Positions 47,047 through 56,601 of a stretch of 64,000 bases of DNA are shown one piece after another. The number at the start of each line of letters is the position of its first letter. Position 1 is the stretch's first letter. Location of the stretch: contig JAFUNF010000020.1 in the NCBI GenBank assembly GCA_017473085.1, forward strand, positions 21,523 through 85,522, given 5' to 3'. The notes beneath the pieces were generated by a model. It did not search any database and was not told where the DNA came from. It worked only from the letters and a program-made list of their open reading frames with translations. This stretch comes from Clostridia bacterium (GTDB taxonomy: Bacteria; Bacillota; Clostridia; Oscillospirales; CAG-272). The position numbers and the translations under genes are program-made.

Positions 47047-48066
47047 TTATTTAGTTGACCTTTTTTCTTTTGGTGGGGTGTCGCCTTCGTAGTTTTTTTG
47101 CATACTGTTTGCAAAATCACGAAGCTGGTCGCGCATTTCTTGTGGCTCGATTACGGTTGCCTTGTGGCCGAAGCGAATTGCCCAACGCAAAACGTCCTCA
47201 CGGCTGGCTCTTGTGCGAATTATAATTCGTGAGTCACGAAGTCCGTTTATTCTAAAATTCTTGCCGAAGGCATCAATTACCTCGCCAATCAGGTCCTTGT
47301 CGATGGCAAGGGTTATATCAAGCATTTCCCCTGATAGCATATAGGGGTGAGAATATATGTAGTCGTCTATTTTCTCATCTGCCCTTTTTCGTGGGGACGC
47401 AAGAATACAAAGGCTTGTTATTTTATCAACTCGGTAGCCATTTAGCTCCTCTCGTTCGTTGCTTGCAATTAAGTAGTAATGTCCGTGTGACATAACTAAA
47501 CGATAGGGGCTTACTACTACCCTTTCAATTGGGTGAAGGGCTTTGTCTATGCCATAGTCGTTTCTTACAAATTCAACCTTCAGGTTTTGTGACATAGCCT
47601 CGTTTAGTTGGGCTATGGTATTGAAAAGGTCCTTGTTGTCGCTTTTGTCAAAGGTATCAAGGGTATGTATGTTTCTTGCCTCGGATTTAAAGTGCTTACT
47701 TGTCAGGCTACATAGCTTATTTATTATCTTTCTTGTGCTCCCTGTGTCTATACATCTGCTTGCTAAAACAAGGTCGATAAGCAAGCACAGCTCTGCCTCG
47801 GTTAAGTCCTTGCCACAGGAGTCGTAATAAGCTCCCTTTGTGGTTTTGAAAACTCCTATGCCACTTGACTCTAAGTCTCCAAGATAATTACTAATTGCCT
47901 TTCTTTCAAGTAGAATATTATACTCTACCTCAAGTAAATTGGAGATTTCAGCTTGGGTCAGCATTTTCGCCTCGGAAAGCTTGCCACTTGGAGAGGGTCT
48001 TGTATGCTTTTTTAAAATATGAAAAATTCTTAGGCACGCCATTCGCTTAGTTTCATTGCTTGCCAT
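47047..48066 (-). CDS. WYL-domain transcriptional regulator (wHTH-WYL-WCX architecture)
   Basis: 339 aa with an N-terminal wHTH (..LTQAEISNLLEVEYNILLERKAISNYLGDLESSG..). The central WYL-like strand motif is ..VVVSPYRLVMSHGHYYLIASNEREELNGYRVDKITS... The C-terminal segment is ..RWAIRFGHKATVIEPQEMRDQL... Transcribed divergently from the helicase operon. Confidence 0.85.
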   Translation of the reverse strand: MASNETKRMACLRIFHILKKHTRPSPSGKLSEAKMLTQAEISNLLEVEYNILLERKAISNYLGDLESSGIGVFKTTKGAYYDSCGKDLTEAELCLLIDLVLASRCIDTGSTRKIINKLCSLTSKHFKSEARNIHTLDTFDKSDNKDLFNTIAQLNEAMSQNLKVEFVRNDYGIDKALHPIERVVVSPYRLVMSHGHYYLIASNEREELNGYRVDKITSLCILASPRKRADEKIDDYIYSHPYMLSGEMLDITLAIDKDLIGEVIDAFGKNFRINGLRDSRIIIRTRASREDVLRWAIRFGHKATVIEPQEMRDQLRDFANSMQKNYEGDTPPKEKRSTK

Positions 48067-48390
48067 ACATATCTCCCCCTCTCTTAAAAATTTTTAGAAC
48101 ACCATACAGAGTAAAAAATCTGTGATATACAATACATTTCTAACAATCCTAATATAACATATATGAAGATATAATTCAACTATATTTTTATATTAAACAT
48201 TAATATTTTTAGGTCAATGTACCATTTTTGATACATTGAAGCCTATAAAATGGTAGTAAAGCCTGAAAAATTGGGCGATTTTTGTCAAGTACAAGCTTCG
48301 AAGAATATATGGCTACATTATTTATGTGCAATAGTTGGTTTGTTTTGCACTATTTAACAGATTAAAAACAGTTTTTTATAGGAGGTACTT

Positions 48391-51300
48391 ATGAAAGGCT
48401 TTGACGACATTCAAAAAATGCTAAACGACTTCTACTCCAGCTTAGACACCCTAAAGGCTGGCTACGAAAAGGAGGAGGAAGAAAAGGCACAGAAGGAAGA
48501 GGTACAGGAAATTGACGAGAAGGCGCAGGCAGAGGCACTTTTACAAGAGGAGCAAAAAAGAAAGGAAAACCTTGAAAAGCTTCGTCTTGAGGACCAACGC
48601 AGAAGCCTTGAAAACGAAGAAAGGCTTAAGGCAGAAAGAAAGGCACTTGACGAGCCACCTATTTTCTTCTCCGCAGGACCAATTGATTTTGACGATTATA
48701 GCTTTGACGATTTTGACGACAAGCCCTCTGACCAGCTTGTAAAGGAGCAAAACGGTCCTTATGATTTTAGTGACTTTGATGATTTTGACGATATTGACAA
48801 TTCTTCTATTACAGATATGCCCGACGATTTGGGTGGCGATTCCTCTGACAAGGTATCAGAGCCTGTCAGTGATAAGGTTGACAAGGACACCCCCGACCAA
48901 GACAAGAGTGGTAATGATGACAAGGACGACAAGAGTGACAAGGTAGACGAGGACGAGCCTAAGGAAAAGAAGCCTAAGTCTATTTTTGACATTCTCAAAA
49001 ATAGAAAGCCTGAAGAAATGGACGAGGAAATTAACAAGAAGGTTGACCCTCTTTATCACAGTGACGACTCCACCTCTGCTGTTTCGGAAAATGACGAGCT
49101 ACTTAAGAAGTGGCAAAGAGAAATTGACCAATGGAAGAAGAATATTATTGACGAGGGTGGCTTTGTTGACGATGGCAAGCTTGTGCAAAAGGTTACCTGT
49201 CACGATATTCCAGACGATTGGAAAAACAGATACGTTGATGATGAAAGAGCCAACATTCACATTGAGGACCTTTCTACTGCTCTTTTGCATTGTCTTAATA
49301 TTCTTGGTGTAGTTGATATTGAATATATTGCTACAATTACTAAGCTTTCCTATGGCGATGTTATAAACGGTCTTAAGGGTGCTATTTATCAAAACCCTAT
49401 GAAATGGGGCGAATGCTTTTTCCGTGGCTGGGAGCTTAGTGACGATTATCTTTCAGGTAATATCATTCACAAATGGCGTGTGGCTATGGAGGAAAACGAC
49501 AAGTATCACGGCTACTTCAAGGACAACGTAGATGCTCTTGAAAGGCTTATTCCTGCATCTCTTCGCACTAAGGACATTTACGTAACCCTTGGCTCTCCTT
49601 GGATTCCACCTGACATTATTGACGAATTTATTTACTATTTAGTTGGCGAGCCTGTGGCAAGACACGAATCTATTACTACTAAGTATGACGAGCATTCAGG
49701 TCTTTGGGAAATTCCTTACAAGTCAAGATTTAAGCGTGGCAAGCATTCTGTTAAGGCCTCCTCTCTTTATGGTACGGCTGATATGGATATGCTTCATATT
49801 ATTGAAAACACTCTTAATATGAAAACTCTTGTGGTTTACCAAAAGGTGAACAATGCCTTTTCAAAGAAGGGTGAGGTTTTCGTGCCTGATCAAAGCAAGA
49901 CTCTTTTAGTTCTTGAAAAGCAACGTATGCTTATTGAGAAGTTCCAGAGCTGGATTTGGGACGACGAGGAGCGTAAGGAAAGGCTACAAATTCTTTATGA
50001 AACTCGCTTTGGTGCTCACCGTAAAAGAGAGTTTGACGGAAGCTTCCTGACCTTCCCACAAATGAACCCTAATGTTACTCTTTTTCCATTCCAAAGAAAT
50101 GCAGTTGCAAGAATTATTTTGACCCCTAATACCCTTCTTGCCCATGATGTTGGCTCAGGTAAGACCTACGTTATGATTGCCTCAGGTATGGAAATGAGAA
50201 GAATTGGTATTTCCAAAAAGAATATGTACGTTTTGCCAAACAACCTGATAGGTCAGTGGAAAACTATCTTTATGGAAATGTACCCCTCGGCTAACATTTT
50301 AGTTGTTGAGCCTAAGGATTTTGTCCCAACCAAGAGAAACGCAACTATGGCTAAGATTAAGAGCATTGATTACGATGCAATTTTAATGGCATATAGCTGT
50401 TTCGATATGATACCTCTCTCACTTGAGTATTACGAGAAGGAATATGAAAGGGTGCTTCAAAAAATTAAGCAATCCCGTGCTACCTTTGAATCAAAGGCTT
50501 CTGTTGACAGAAAGCACAAGTCCCTGCTTGCAAGCCTTGAAAAGCTGAAAAAGGAGCTTGAGGAAAACGAAATGAAGATTACCTTTGACCAGCTTGGTAT
50601 TAATACTCTATTCGTTGATGAAGCCCACAATTATAAAAACGTGCCTATTGACACAAAAATCACAAGAATACTTGGTATTTCCAAAAATGGCTCTCGCAAA
50701 TGCTCTGATATGCTTGACAAGGTTAAGTGTGTGCAGAAGCAAAATGGTGGTCGTGGTGTTGTATTTGCAACAGGTACGCCTATTACCAACTCCATAACCG
50801 ACGCTTACGTTATGCAATCCTACCTACAAAGTGGAGAGCTTGCACTTCTTGGTCTTACAAGCTTTGACTCCTGGGTTGGTATGTTTGCTGAAAAATCTAC
50901 TGACTTTGAGGTTGACGTGGACACTACAAACTTCCGTATGGCAACAAGATTTGCAAAGTTCCACAACCTACCAGAGCTTACCTCTATTCTTGCATCTATT
51001 GCAGACTTCCACGCAGTTGACAAAACTGGTGGTATGCCTGACTTCAATGGCTATACAGACAGTGTAATCAGCCCTACCCCTGCATTTAAGGATTATCTTA
51101 AGGAAATTTCCTCCCGTGCAGATGATGTACGTAGTAGGCGTGTACCACCTGACGTTGATAATATGCTTAAGATTACCAACCACGGAAGGCTTGCAGCCCT
51201 TGACCTTCGTTTAGTAGATAATACTGCTCGCTTTACCCTTCAATCCAAGGTGGCAAGATGTGCTGAGTGTATTATTGATACCTATAATTCCTCCAGCAAA

Positions 51301-55809: not shown

Positions 55810-55818
55810 GGAGGCACA

Positions 55819-56601
55819 ATGAAAAATATTTTATTTAAGAAAAGTAAATATTTGAATATTGCTTTTGCTTGTGTTGGTGACAAATGTCACGAATCTTGCA
55901 AGAAGGCACTTAAATTGGTTAGCTATCATATTGATACTGTTTTGTCAGATGACAACGCTTCTTCCTCTATTTCTCTTCTTCTGTATAAAAGGATAGGAGC
56001 AAAGAAAATTGTTAATGATTTAAAAATTTATGATGCTATATTTTTTGTAGCTGACGTAAACGACGAGGAAAGTGTTAATCGTTGTCTTGAAGCAAGTGAG
56101 CAGTTGGAAAAAGAGAGTGCTTGCTCCTGTATTTTCCTTTCCGAAAATAAAAGGCAAATTGAATCCTCCTTATCGGTTGCTGTGATTAAGGAGAGTGAGC
56201 TTTGTCACACTATTGCAAGACTATTCTCTGCTTGCAATTTAAGTGATGCTCTTGAAAGGGAGCTTAGTCTTGTGCTTGACCTTTCAGAAAAATGCACCTC
56301 TATTTTCAAGTGGGAGCTTTTGTTAAAATCCCTTGGGAGTGGTTGGGAAAAGCGTCTTGACAATATTGACTTAGATGGTGCAACACAGGTCCTTGCAGTA
56401 ATAAAATCTAAGGAGTCTTTATCACTTGAAGCCTATGATGAGCTTTCCTTTGCTCTTATGTCAAGATTAGGTGACGGGATTGATATTTCCTTTGAAACTA
56501 TTCAAGATGAAAAGCTAAAGGGCACTGCTATGCTTAGCATATATTCAGGATATCCGAAAAAGGTGCTTGAATTGGATAGAACAAATTTCACAAAAAATTG
56601 A
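55819..56601 (+). CDS. Degenerate FtsZ/tubulin-like protein (260 aa)
   Basis: AAGGAGG RBS, 9 nt after the vWA gene. Collinear resemblance to FtsZ: NIAFACVGDKCHESC vs IKVIGVGGGGNNAV; DAIFFVADV vs DMVFVTAGM; VLDLSEKCTSIF vs NLDFADVKTIM; DGATQVLAVIKSKESLSLEAYDE vs DGAQGVLMNITGGTNLSLYEVQE. The GGGTGTG loop is missing. The CDS call is firm; the fold call is an inference. Confidence 0.7.
   Translation: MKNILFKKSKYLNIAFACVGDKCHESCKKALKLVSYHIDTVLSDDNASSSISLLLYKRIGAKKIVNDLKIYDAIFFVADVNDEESVNRCLEASEQLEKESACSCIFLSENKRQIESSLSVAVIKESELCHTIARLFSACNLSDALERELSLVLDLSEKCTSIFKWELLLKSLGSGWEKRLDNIDLDGATQVLAVIKSKESLSLEAYDELSFALMSRLGDGIDISFETIQDEKLKGTAMLSIYSGYPKKVLELDRTNFTKN

What the first reader, a model, noticed from the sequence alone, without database searches (positions are those of the whole stretch)
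47047..56601. Divergent WYL regulator + tightly coupled SNF2-like helicase / MoxR AAA+ / two HExxH proteins (one with vWA) / degenerate FtsZ-like: candidate undescribed conflict or mobile-element module
Five plus-strand genes are packed with overlaps of 8, 14 and 14 nt and then a 9-nt gap, and all have good RBSs, so they form one operon. (1) A 1340-aa protein with an acidic disordered N-terminus and a complete SF2/SNF2-type helicase core (GSGKT, DEAH, TGTP, QREGRILRQGN). (2) An AAA_5/MoxR-type ATPase. (3) A chimeric HExxH protein. (4) An HExxH + vWA (MIDAS DTSGS) protein of the DUF2201_N/DUF2201 type, the usual partner of such ATPases. (5) A tubulin/FtsZ-like protein lacking the GTP-binding loop. 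A wHTH-WYL-WCX regulator is encoded divergently, 324 bp upstream. From established knowledge, WYL regulators of this architecture (the BrxR/CapW type) are recurrently found next to anti-phage systems. MoxR-vWA pairs occur in NTP-dependent conflict systems as well as in housekeeping chaperone roles. The helicase resembles the helicase half of large plasmid-, ICE- or phage-borne methylase-helicase fusions but has no methylase motif. I know of no named defence system with this composition. The left flank (44.9-47.0 kb) holds small membrane ORFs and repeat relics, and the right flank holds a separately promoted guaA-like gene. No integrase is present.
Basis: partly seen in the sequence, partly recalled or inferred. 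Interest (0 to 1): 0.85.

Follow-up and report, generated by a model that had tools for sequence, protein, structure and literature searches.

The report
WYL-controlled helicase–MoxR–protease gene module
A gut Clostridia chromosome carries an uncharacterised, regulator-controlled operon that pairs a DNA motor otherwise found in phage and plasmid anti-restriction proteins with an ATP-driven chaperone and a protease; it is a good but untested candidate for a new conflict (defence-type) system.

Summary
This covers the coordinates, the overlaps (8/14/14 nt, then a 9-nt gap), the ribosome-binding sites, the motifs, and the daring FtsZ-like call (top 50 Foldseek PDB hits are all FtsZ).

The real conserved unit is three genes, not five:
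- a methylase-less SNF2 helicase of the DarB/polyvalent-protein clade;
- a MoxR-type AAA+ ATPase;
- a zincin–vWA protein, the pair known from phage N4 gp24/gp25.

About 38 non-redundant gut and rumen Clostridia loci carry this trio. A WYL regulator lies nearby in 15 of them. The 34 trio-linked helicases that could be placed form one pure clade in a neighbour-joining tree. None of about 112 methylase–helicase fusions has the ATPase/vWA pair.

The chimeric gene comes from a 925-bp tandem duplication of the ATPase/vWA gene junction. It is absent from a close relative (L176). Its catalytic Glu is Gln in two orthologues. The FtsZ-like gene is restricted to this lineage and evolves fast. The guaA-like gene is the clade's normal stand-alone GMP-synthase subunit.

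No PADLOC system or held paper describes the trio. The most likely function is an ATP-gated, DNA-directed proteolytic conflict system, and this is not tested. I rate it a new variant of a known kind, of moderate to high interest.

The parts
47047..48066 (-). wHTH-WYL-WCX transcription regulator (339 aa), divergent from the operon
   Evidence: Pfam WYL E 1e-8 and WCX E 1e-6. PADLOC WYL model E 7e-25. A homologue lies near the trio in 15 of about 38 loci. dN/dS 0.12-0.14.
48214..48239 (.). Palindrome TCAATGTACCA-N4/5-TGATACATTGA in the 324-bp divergent promoter region; candidate WYL operator
   Evidence: Inverted repeat I4. Conserved in the same intergenic position in L003-L006, L014 and L176, where it is a perfect palindrome.
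48391..49182 (+). Acidic, low-complexity N-terminal extension of the helicase (aa 1-264, FDDFDD-type repeats), specific to this lineage
   Evidence: Translation. Direct repeats D4 and D11 and a 27-nt tandem repeat. More distant homologues align only from aa ~265. The extension is also encoded in L176.
48391..52413 (+). Methylase-less SWI2/SNF2-type helicase/translocase of the DarB/polyvalent-protein clade (1340 aa)
   Evidence: Pfam SNF2-rel_dom, ResIII and Helicase_C. phrog_10089 'DarB-like antirestriction' E 1e-232. Precomputed PF28553 WH_1, PF28554 DUF8437 and PF28555 Helicase_dom. Motifs I, II, III and VI are invariant. Falls in the pure trio-linked clade of the NJ tree.
52406..53518 (+). 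MoxR-type AAA+ ATPase (370 aa), overlapping the helicase gene by 8 nt
   Evidence: Pfam AAA, AAA_3 and AAA_5. phrog_1297 E 4e-93, full length. Walker A GPPGVGKS and Walker B LFLDE. Lies immediately downstream of the helicase in 35 loci.
53213..55062 (+). Two copies of a ~925-bp tandem duplication spanning the ATPase 3' end and the vWA gene 5' half; this created the chimeric gene
   Evidence: Direct repeats D1 (262 nt, 79%) and D2 (95 nt, 71%), both spaced 925 nt. Protein similarities. L176 keeps ATPase directly followed by vWA, with no chimera.
53505..54443 (+). Chimeric protein (312 aa): N-terminal half of the zincin domain fused to the C-terminal domain of the MoxR ATPase; probably non-catalytic
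   Evidence: Pfam DUF2201_N over aa 14-107 only. HExxH is HEMLH here but HQMLH in L003 and L006. dN/dS 0.16-0.25, with dN about 3-fold above the parent genes. Found only in the closest loci.
54430..55809 (+). Zincin metallopeptidase (DUF2201_N) fused to a vWA domain (DUF2201), 459 aa, with a disordered Lys/Gly/Asp-rich insert
   Evidence: Pfam E 6e-38 and 7e-14. phrog_1314 E 2e-83. H75, H79 and the MIDAS residues D334/S336/S338/D422 are invariant, and E76, H84 and T396 nearly so. In a PDB profile search the zincin part matches minigluzincin MJ1213 and HtpX/BepA (M48), and the vWA part matches integrin I domains.
55819..56601 (+). Fast-evolving FtsZ-fold protein (260 aa) without the GTP-binding signature; accessory gene restricted to this lineage
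   Evidence: No Pfam hit. Only 5 homologues among 5.8 billion proteins, and 3 among 1.84 billion representatives. FtsZ is the only PDB sequence hit. Foldseek top 50 are all FtsZ. 32% identical to its L176 counterpart, while the neighbouring genes are 73-88% identical. dN/dS 0.21.

Best explanation
The locus is a WYL-regulated operon. Its conserved core is a three-protein machine:
(i) a dsDNA translocase of the DarB/polyvalent-protein SNF2 clade that has lost its methylase partner;
(ii) a MoxR-type AAA+ chaperone;
(iii) a vWA co-chaperone fused to a zincin peptidase.

Shown:
- All catalytic motifs are intact.
- The genes overlap, so they are probably translationally coupled.
- The trio is conserved as a unit and its helicases form a single clade.
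- It occurs in varied genomic contexts.

Inferred, by analogy with other MoxR-vWA pairs and with the MoxR-vWA conflict systems of Kaur et al. 2020:
- The WYL protein binds the conserved palindrome and releases or activates transcription on sensing a ligand, such as ssDNA or a nucleotide signal.
- The helicase loads on and tracks along DNA, probably invading or abnormal DNA.
- The MoxR ring engages the vWA MIDAS site and uses ATP to present a DNA-bound or helicase-bound protein to the zincin, or to unlock the zincin. Proteolysis is thereby ATP-gated and directed to DNA.
- The acidic FDDFDD-rich N-terminus of the helicase is a plausible MIDAS ligand.

In this lineage two fast-evolving pseudo-enzymes were added. 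One is a zincin-half::MoxR-C-terminus chimera made by a 925-bp tandem duplication. The other is a GTP-loop-less FtsZ-fold protein. They most likely act as adaptors, regulators or decoys.

The most probable biological role is inter-genomic conflict, meaning defence against phages or other mobile elements.
For: - Domains and motifs.
- Census: the trio is contiguous and overlapping in about 38 non-redundant loci, while 0 of about 112 methylase fusions have the pair.
- Tree: the 34 trio-linked helicases that could be placed form a pure clade.
- No DarB-type methylase region occurs in any trio locus.
- WYL lies nearby in 15 loci, with a conserved operator-like palindrome.
- Presence or absence among relatives of similar divergence: L176 has the module, L177 and L178 do not.
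- Neighbours in some loci are defence-type or mobile: GmrSD/HEC-06-like, CARF-PDDEXK, IetA-like AAA-M41, PDC-S33-like, serine recombinases, a relaxase.
- The accessory components evolve fast under purifying selection.
- Literature precedents: MoxR-vWA conflict systems have peptidase effectors fused to vWA, inactive NTPase domains, and rare FtsZ/tubulin and SNF2 effectors (PMC7159879). The DarB-type SNF2 module belongs to conflict proteins (PMC5512222).
Against: - There is no experimental evidence.
- No PADLOC system model matches; only generic Helicase_C and WYL hits appear.
- In the window's own lineage the locus is syntenic, chromosomal and apparently vertically inherited, next to housekeeping genes.
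- Most trio loci show no recognisable defence or mobile-element neighbour within the flanks. This search used BLAST seeds only and many contigs are short.
- The defining third components of the Kaur ternary systems (VMAP, iSTAND, FtsH) are not part of this operon.
- Sister short helicases without the pair sit among housekeeping genes (infB, ribF, plsY, gyrB/parE-like).
- Phage homologues of the pair sit in DNA-metabolism regions and have been proposed to be assembly chaperones.
Confidence: 0.45

Rival explanations
1. DNA-damage or DNA-protein-complex clearance module. A DNA-damage-sensing WYL regulator (PafBC/DriD-like logic) induces a translocase, an AAA+ unfoldase and a protease. Together they remove stalled or cross-linked proteins from chromosomal DNA, as a housekeeping or stress function.
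For: - Stable syntenic chromosomal locus under purifying selection in this lineage.
- Sister short helicases lie in housekeeping DNA/translation neighbourhoods next to a GyrB/ParE-like gene.
- LigA is adjacent in L012.
- Phage homologues of the ATPase/vWA pair are embedded in DNA replication and nucleotide-metabolism regions.
- Weak sub-threshold Pfam SprT-like hits.
Against: - The profile search against PDB places the zincin with M48/minigluzincin peptidases, not SprT/Wss1.
- The module is absent from relatives of similar divergence and patchy overall, which is unusual for core repair.
- The helicase clade derives from mobile-element conflict proteins.
- The WYL protein shows no sequence similarity to solved PafBC/DriD-type structures.
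Confidence: 0.2
2. Domesticated or remnant mobile-element establishment or counter-defence module. Like DarB, the helicase acts on the element's own DNA. The MoxR/zincin-vWA pair replaces the methylase, for example by stripping or degrading host restriction complexes.
For: - The helicase belongs to the DarB/polyvalent anti-restriction clade.
- The ATPase/vWA pair is widespread in lytic phages: 558 phage records, including N4 gp24/gp25.
- Some trio loci lie beside serine recombinases, a relaxase, or primase/DnaC-like genes.
- One trio locus is on an IMG/VR contig (L096).
Against: - The window has no integrase, tRNA, att-like repeats or transfer genes around the module.
- The locus is syntenic across species.
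- Only 1 of 80 viral-contig helicase hits is of the trio type, and that contig looks like an integrative element rather than a virion genome.
- Control by a host-type WYL regulator suits a resident system.
Confidence: 0.15
3. Classical MoxR-vWA chaperone role: assembly, metal insertion or maturation of some cellular complex, unrelated to conflict. The helicase would be a client or an incidental partner.
For: - Known MoxR-vWA pairs act as maturation chaperones (established knowledge; cited in PMC7159879 and PMC7824862).
- An assembly role has been proposed for the phage versions.
Against: - The linkage with a DNA translocase is strict, overlapping and monophyletic.
- No candidate client enzyme is conserved in the neighbourhood.
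- The module is under WYL control.
Confidence: 0.1
4. A standard replication or partition module of a prophage or ICE, with the FtsZ-like protein acting as a TubZ/PhuZ-type segregation GTPase.
For: - The 260-aa protein has an FtsZ fold.
- L013 has primase/DnaC-like genes and a separate FtsZ_C ORF nearby.
Against: - The GTP-binding signature is absent.
- The protein is restricted to a few close relatives and is not part of the conserved trio.
- It resembles cellular FtsZ far more than phage tubulins.
- The window has no replication, partition or integration genes.
Confidence: 0.03

Closest known systems
Phage P1 DarB and the methylase-SNF2 'dyad' of polyvalent proteins of phages and conjugative elements (Iyer et al. 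2017, PMC5512222)
   Same: The helicase core and the region preceding it (WH_1, DUF8437, Helicase_dom) are homologous: phrog_10089 E 1e-232 and 30-42% identity to about 112 fusion proteins.
   Different: - There is no adenine methylase, in the protein or within 10 kb.
- The protein is short (1.1-1.3 kb of aa, against 1.8-5 kb for the fusions).
- It is chromosomal and WYL-regulated, and always coupled to MoxR + zincin-vWA, which the fusions never have.
Phage MoxR + metallopeptidase-vWA pair (N4 gp24/gp25; group 2.2 jumbo phages, PMC7824862)
   Same: Same two families with the same gene order, ATPase then zincin-vWA: phrog_1297 E 4e-93 and phrog_1314 E 2e-83, and 26-37% identity to phage proteins.
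   Different: - Here the pair is cellular.
- It is fused into an operon with a DarB-clade helicase and a WYL regulator.
- In this lineage it has been partly duplicated into a chimera.
- The phage pairs examined (N4-like PhAPEC5, Thermus phiFa) have no adjacent DarB-type helicase.
MoxR-vWA-centric 'ternary' conflict systems (Kaur, Burroughs, Iyer, Aravind 2020, PMC7159879)
   Same: - A MoxR + vWA core with a peptidase fused to vWA.
- Additional inactive NTPase-like components.
- Rare SNF2 and FtsZ/tubulin domains are reported as effectors.
   Different: - The defining third components (VMAP, iSTAND, FtsH-type) and the effector-associated domains are not in the operon.
- The constant third gene here is a DarB-clade helicase.
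- The hosts are gut Clostridia, not the multicellular actinobacteria and cyanobacteria emphasised in that work.
BrxR/CapW/PafBC/DriD-type wHTH-WYL-WCX regulators
   Same: - WYL + WCX domains.
- Divergent placement from the controlled operon.
- A palindromic candidate operator.
   Different: - There is no detectable sequence similarity to the solved members.
- The ligand and the regulatory logic are unknown.
- No N-terminal HTH family reached threshold in Pfam.
FtsZ, and the FtsZ-like families linked to vWA proteins (FtsZl1; Makarova & Koonin 2010, PMC2875224)
   Same: - FtsZ two-domain fold.
- The FtsZ_C region is detectable by sequence.
- There is precedent for operons combining an FtsZ-like gene with a vWA gene.
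   Different: - The GGGTGTG nucleotide-binding loop is missing.
- The protein is short (228-260 aa).
- It is extremely narrow in distribution.
- Membership of FtsZl1 or FtsZl2 was not tested.

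Membership tests
DarB / polyvalent-protein methylase-helicase dyad | SWI2/SNF2-type helicase of the polyvalent-protein family | tested here: met
   phrog_10089 E 1e-232. PF28553, PF28554 and PF28555 are shared with the fusions. tblastn gives 35-40% identity to phage and plasmid fusions.
DarB / polyvalent-protein methylase-helicase dyad | EcoKI/TaqI-like adenine methylase fused N-terminally, or encoded adjacently | tested here: not met
   No methylase Pfam domain in the protein. 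BLAST with the N-terminal regions of six fusions hits 122 other loci and 0 trio loci.
DarB / polyvalent-protein methylase-helicase dyad | Encoded by a phage, plasmid or conjugative element, and delivered with the DNA | tested here: not met
   The context is chromosomal and syntenic, with RNase P RNA in the window and no mobile-element hallmarks. Delivery itself cannot be tested with these tools.
MoxR-vWA ternary conflict systems (Kaur et al. 2020) | Adjacent MoxR-type AAA+ ATPase and vWA protein with an intact MIDAS site | tested here: met
   Pfam AAA_3/AAA_5 and DUF2201. MIDAS residues are invariant. The genes overlap.
MoxR-vWA ternary conflict systems (Kaur et al. 2020) | Third core component of VMAP, iSTAND, FtsH or related type | tested here: not met
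   The operon contains no such protein by Pfam or PADLOC. An IetA/FtsH-like AAA-M41 gene is a neighbour in only 4 of about 38 loci. VMAP- and iSTAND-specific profiles were not available.
MoxR-vWA ternary conflict systems (Kaur et al. 2020) | Effector domain fused to vWA or encoded alongside it | tested here: met
   A zincin with HExxH is fused N-terminally to the vWA domain.
Phage-type MoxR + metallopeptidase-vWA pair (phrog_1297 / phrog_1314; N4 gp24/gp25) | Full-length matches to both families, in the order ATPase then zincin-vWA | tested here: met
   E 4e-93 and 2e-83, covering nearly whole profiles. The same order is seen in PhAPEC5 and phiFa.
BrxR/CapW-type WYL defence regulators | wHTH-WYL-WCX architecture | tested here: inconclusive
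   WYL and WCX are found. The N-terminal HTH is not recognised by Pfam. There is no similarity to solved members.
BrxR/CapW-type WYL defence regulators | Regulates an adjacent defence system through an inverted-repeat operator | not testable with these tools
   A conserved palindrome lies in the divergent promoter region. Binding and regulation need experiments.
FtsZ/tubulin superfamily | Two-domain FtsZ fold | tested here: met
   Foldseek: the top 50 PDB hits are all FtsZ, E about 1e-9 to 1e-8, over about 305-335 alignment columns. TM-scores are only about 0.3 and model pLDDT is 73. The FtsZ_C region also matches by sequence.
FtsZ/tubulin superfamily | GTP-binding signature GGGTG(T/S)G (T4 loop) and glycine-rich T1 loop | tested here: not met
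   The window protein has 'FFVADVNDEES' at the expected T4 position and 'ACVGDKC' at T1. Only the distant orthologue keeps 'VGIGTGSS' at T1.
Named defence systems with SNF2-type helicases (DISARM DrmD, Hma, Zorya ZorD, BREX BrxH, Dpd) | Full-length match to the system's helicase, plus presence of its partner genes | tested here: not met
   PADLOC and NCBIfam hits cover only the Helicase_C region, at 46-66 bits against cut-offs of 500-1500, and no partner genes are present.

The most novel reading that the evidence does not exclude
The helicase-MoxR-zincin/vWA trio is a new class of defence system. An SNF2 motor tracks along invading DNA and delivers an ATP-gated protease that removes or cleaves DNA-bound invader proteins, or triggers abortive infection. 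In this lineage a pseudo-FtsZ acts as a decoy or capper for phage tubulin or host FtsZ. A pseudo-zincin::MoxR-tail chimera tunes activation. On this reading, mobile-element anti-restriction hardware (the DarB helicase and the phage gp24/gp25 pair) has been recruited by the host for immunity.
Probability: 0.15. Interest if true: 0.8.

Novelty: new variant of a known kind. Interest (0 to 1): 0.6.

Why it matters
Each part of the locus is known but none is understood.
- The MoxR + zincin-vWA pair occurs in hundreds of phages, including N4, rV5-like phages, jumbo phages and cyanophages. It has no demonstrated function.
- The DarB-clade helicase has only been studied as part of methylase fusions.

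A cellular, regulator-controlled operon that couples the two exclusively and in a single clade offers a tractable handle on both. It predicts a physical complex in which a DNA motor directs an ATP-gated protease. That mechanism is not represented among characterised bacterial immune or repair systems.

The locus also gives a dated example of gene birth. A junction-spanning tandem duplication produced a selected pseudo-enzyme. A fast-evolving pseudo-FtsZ sits in the same operon. Both fit the decoy/adaptor theme proposed for conflict systems.

The system is confined so far to uncultured gut and rumen Clostridia, where defence repertoires are poorly charted.

Tried and rejected
- Megablast of 44-60 kb against phages and plasmids found nothing.
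- PADLOC and NCBIfam gave no system-level or equivalog match.
The metagenome and viral scans with an alignment were far more productive.
- The single-sequence AF2 model of the 260-aa protein was unusable, with pLDDT 49. The 6-sequence alignment fixed this.
- A profile search of the 260-aa family over 1.84 billion representatives found only 3 proteins. hhalign and hmmsearch against E. coli FtsZ aligned only the FtsZ_C segment. Any T7-loop correspondence (N140-L-x-D-A) therefore rests on spacing alone and is not claimed.
- The small genes downstream of vWA in other trio loci are not homologous to the FtsZ-like protein.
- I considered that the guaA-like gene was a fragment split by insertion of the module, or part of the module. 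I rejected this because hundreds of related Clostridia encode the same 333-aa stand-alone subunit.
- I considered a SprT/Wss1-like identity for the zincin, which would favour cross-link repair. The PDB profile search instead points to M48/minigluzincin types.
- Flanking att-like repeats and tRNAs were sought and none was found.
- Literature searches for DUF2201 and for the trio's composition found no description of it.
- BLAST-seed searches for recombinases, relaxases and primases in trio loci found them in only about 6 loci. The sensitivity of this search is limited.

Full report
**1. Observation**

The six-frame ORF list gives the seven genes at the stated coordinates:
- WYL regulator, 47047-48066 (-)
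- helicase, 48391-52413
- AAA ATPase, 52406-53518
- chimera, 53505-54443
- zincin-vWA, 54430-55809
- 260-aa protein, 55819-56601
- guaA-like gene, 56715-57716

The overlaps are 8, 14 and 14 nt, then a 9-nt gap. The divergent spacer is 324 bp. Each start codon is preceded by a GGAGG- or GGGGG-type ribosome-binding site.

Pfam confirms the domain calls: WYL+WCX; SNF2-rel_dom/ResIII/Helicase_C; AAA/AAA_3/AAA_5; DUF2201_N alone in the 312-aa protein; DUF2201_N+DUF2201 in the 459-aa protein.

Helicase motifs I, II, III and VI are invariant in 22 homologues. In 22 vWA homologues, H75, H79 and the MIDAS residues D334, S336, S338 and D422 are invariant, and E76 and T396 nearly so.

dN/dS between three orthologous loci is 0.06-0.25 for all seven genes. 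These are real, selected genes.

**2. Source and context**

The window is identical to a metagenome scaffold (ERZ28654512) assigned to uncultured Clostridia. It is chromosomal:
- RNase P RNA lies at 30092-30455.
- The flanks encode AhpC, a glycosyltransferase, AzlCD and an aminotransferase.
- There are no tRNAs.
- No att-like repeats bracket the module.
- No recombinase, relaxase or primase homologue is present.

**3. The 260-aa protein is FtsZ-like**

It has no Pfam, PHROG, NCBIfam or PADLOC hit. It has only five homologues among 5.8 billion proteins and three among 1.84 billion representatives.

A family profile hits only FtsZ in PDB. The match is weak (E 0.25-0.5) and falls over the FtsZ_C region. 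E. coli FtsZ aligns over the same segment.

The single-sequence AF2 model failed. A six-sequence alignment gave pLDDT 73. Foldseek then returned FtsZ for all top 50 PDB hits, at E 2e-9 to 6e-8 over about 305-335 columns. TM-scores are only about 0.3, probably because the relative orientation of the two domains differs. Phage tubulins match far more weakly.

The GGGTGTG loop is replaced by 'FFVADVNDEES'. Only the most distant orthologue keeps a glycine-rich T1-like 'VGIGTGSS'.

**4. The chimera arose by a 925-bp tandem duplication**

Its aa 1-107 are 46% identical to the vWA protein N-terminus. Its aa 212-312 are 64% identical to the ATPase C-terminus.

At DNA level, two repeat pairs (262 nt at 79% and 95 nt at 71%) share a 925-nt spacing. 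This is what a tandem duplication spanning the ATPase/vWA gene junction would produce.

Locus L176 confirms it. L176 comes from a relative whose helicase, ATPase and vWA proteins are 82%, 88% and 73% identical to the window's. It has the ATPase followed directly by the vWA gene, with no chimera.

The chimera is under purifying selection (dN/dS 0.16-0.25), but its dN is about three times that of its parent genes. Its HExxH reads HQMLH in two of three orthologues. It is therefore probably non-catalytic.

**5. The conserved unit is three genes**

The whole seven-gene arrangement recurs only in close relatives (L003-L006, L014), at the same syntenic place.

Helicase homologues split into two groups:
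- proteins of about 1070-1340 aa without methylase domains, mostly 48% or more identical to the query (one at 41%);
- methylase-helicase fusions of 1800-5000 aa, 41% identical or less.

I fetched 160 loci from metagenomes and IMG/VR with a helicase alignment. I searched all their ORFs with the window proteins.
- About 38 non-redundant loci have the short helicase immediately followed, usually with overlap, by the ATPase and the zincin-vWA gene.
- None of about 112 fusions has the pair.
- No DarB-type methylase region occurs in any trio locus.

In a neighbour-joining tree of 159 helicase cores, the 34 trio-linked helicases form one pure clade. Eight short helicases without the pair (two groups, of three and five) are the nearest relatives. 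The fusions lie apart. The tree has no bootstrap support values.

A WYL homologue lies nearby in 15 trio loci. The chimera, the FtsZ-like gene and the guaA adjacency are confined to the closest relatives. The genes downstream of vWA in other trio loci are unrelated to the FtsZ-like protein.

**6. Regulation**

The divergent spacer contains the palindrome TCAATGTACCA-N-TGATACATTGA. It is conserved in all orthologous loci and is perfect in L176, despite divergence of the surrounding spacer. It is a strong candidate operator for the WYL protein.

The WYL protein shows no sequence similarity to solved BrxR/CapW/PafBC/DriD-type proteins.

A separate promoter-like site precedes the guaA-like gene.

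**7. The guaA-like gene is a neighbour, not part of the module**

The 333-aa protein matches only positions 196-512 of GuaA. Hundreds of related Clostridia encode the same 333-aa stand-alone protein at 85-91% identity. It is the clade's normal ATP-pyrophosphatase subunit.

Among relatives of similar guaA divergence, L176 has the module while L177 and L178 lack it. In L177 and L178 the region downstream of guaA carries other cargo:
- L177: a type I R-M system plus an integrase;
- L178: an integrative mobilisable element with two D12 methylases and an AlwI-type endonuclease.

**8. Contexts of the trio elsewhere**

The contexts are varied. Some are mobile:
- L096, and probably its close homologue L036 (which shares the DUF2828 gene, with no recombinase detected), end with a DUF2828 protein, a sigma factor and two large serine recombinases;
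- L010 has a relaxase;
- L013 has a Toprim-AAA_25 primase, a DnaC-like gene and an FtsK-like gene;
- L032 has a serine recombinase.

Some are defence-like:
- GmrSD/HEC-06-like genes beside the WYL gene in 3 loci;
- an IetA-like AAA-M41 protein in 4 loci;
- in L010, a Card1-like CARF nuclease and a PDC-S33-like RelA/SpoT protein beside a second ATPase/vWA pair.

Many loci show nothing recognisable. One sister group of pair-less short helicases sits among infB, ribF, plsY and a gyrB/parE-like gene.

**9. Relation to known systems**

- The helicase matches the PHROG family 'DarB-like antirestriction' at E 1e-232. It is 35-37% identical to fusions in Clostridium, Listeria and Enterococcus plasmids and in phages. 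These are the methylase-SNF2 dyad of polyvalent proteins (PMC5512222).
- The ATPase and vWA proteins match phrog_1297 and phrog_1314 over their full lengths. They have homologues in 558 phage records, including N4-like phages (gp24/gp25), phage G and cyanophages.
- The jumbo-phage survey described this MoxR + metallopeptidase-vWA pair and guessed a virion-assembly role (PMC7824862). In the two phages I inspected, it lies in early or DNA-metabolism regions.
- The conceptual frame that fits best is that of the MoxR-vWA conflict systems (PMC7159879). These have peptidases fused to vWA, inactive NTPase modules, and rare SNF2 and FtsZ/tubulin effectors. Their defining third components are absent here.
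- Linkage between FtsZ-like and vWA genes has precedent (PMC2875224).
- No PADLOC model or held paper describes the trio.

**10. Mechanism**

Shown:
- Catalytic motifs are intact in the helicase, the ATPase, the zincin and the MIDAS site.
- The genes overlap.
- The trio is conserved as a unit in a single clade.
- There is a candidate operator.

Inferred:
- WYL-controlled expression.
- An SNF2-type motor that tracks on dsDNA.
- A MoxR ring that engages the vWA MIDAS site and uses ATP to present a DNA-associated protein to the zincin, or to unlock the zincin.
- The acidic FDDFDD-rich helicase N-terminus as a possible MIDAS ligand.
- The chimera and the pseudo-FtsZ as adaptors or decoys.

By profile, the zincin resembles M48/minigluzincin peptidases rather than SprT. 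This weakens a cross-link-repair analogy.

I give about 0.45 to a conflict or defence role, 0.2 to DNA-damage or protein-clearance housekeeping, 0.15 to a domesticated mobile-element counter-defence or establishment module, 0.1 to a generic chaperone role, and 0.03 to a replication or partition module.

**11. Verdict**

The locus is an undescribed and genuinely conserved gene association, but its unit is a trio plus a regulator. Two of the five 'operon' genes are recent additions specific to this lineage. The conflict function is plausible and unproven.

I rate it a new variant of a known kind, with interest 0.6.

Noticed in passing
window 56715-57716 (+): A stand-alone GMP synthase ATP-pyrophosphatase subunit of 333 aa, covering only GuaA positions 196-512. 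Hundreds of related Clostridia have the same split form. No GATase subunit gene is annotated within 10 kb, so its partner must lie elsewhere.
   Followed up: partly
L177 11168-21002 and L178 11149-20998 (relatives lacking the module): The region just downstream of the guaA subunit gene is a cargo hotspot in relatives. L177 has a type I R-M system plus an integrase. L178 has an integrative mobilisable element with a tyrosine integrase, a relaxase, two D12 methylases and an AlwI-type endonuclease.
   Followed up: no
window 30092-30455 (-): Bacterial RNase P RNA class A, 247 bits. This confirms that the window is chromosomal.
   Followed up: no
window 44963-46885 (-), with hairpins at 44925-44960 and 47014-47042: Three small predicted membrane proteins (168, 244 and 140 aa, no family hits) lie between the 655-aa gene and the WYL gene. 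They are absent from L003, L004 and L176, where those two genes are adjacent, so this is an insertion/deletion-prone spot. A strong 12-bp-stem terminator-like hairpin follows the WYL gene.
   Followed up: partly
L010 956-7742: A second MoxR + zincin-vWA pair without a helicase (55% and 35% identical to the window proteins). It sits next to a Card1-like CARF-PDDEXK nuclease, a transglutaminase-core protein and a RelA/SpoT-like protein that matches PADLOC PDC-S33. A relaxase gene lies at the other end of the locus. It looks like a defence-island setting.
   Followed up: partly
L013 4526-4924 (+): A 132-aa ORF consisting only of an FtsZ_C domain. It lies between a WYL regulator/AAA+ (AAA_lid_6) gene pair and an RNase T-like gene, 4 kb upstream of another helicase-MoxR-vWA trio. 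It is not detectably related to the window's FtsZ-like protein.
   Followed up: partly
L042, L044 and L053, around 9900-15200: The nearest pair-less short helicases sit in a housekeeping neighbourhood (infB, ribF, plsY, a PHP-domain gene, then a GyrB/ParE-like gene immediately downstream). This hints at a domesticated chromosomal role for that sister group.
   Followed up: partly
L019 14710 and L020 10754: Palindromes resembling the candidate WYL operator (ATGTACC-N-GGTACAT) occur downstream of the vWA gene. In L020 one lies directly upstream of an IetA-like AAA-M41 protease gene. The WYL regulon may therefore extend to those genes.
   Followed up: no
L003 14725-16212 (-) and L004 14918-16405 (-): A 495-aa protein combining a WYL-regulator-like region (35% identical to the window WYL protein) with BspA-type leucine-rich repeats (LRR_5). 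It lies a few kb downstream of the module in relatives. This architecture is unusual.
   Followed up: no
window 38001-40000: A local drop in G+C to 0.32, against about 0.39 for the window. It was not examined.
   Followed up: no
window 54880-55060 (vWA protein aa ~150-215): A disordered insert rich in Lys, Gly, Gln and Asp, including a (CAAGGT)6 repeat, splits the zincin domain. L012 has a comparable but unrelated low-complexity insert. The chimera has lost most of it.
   Followed up: partly
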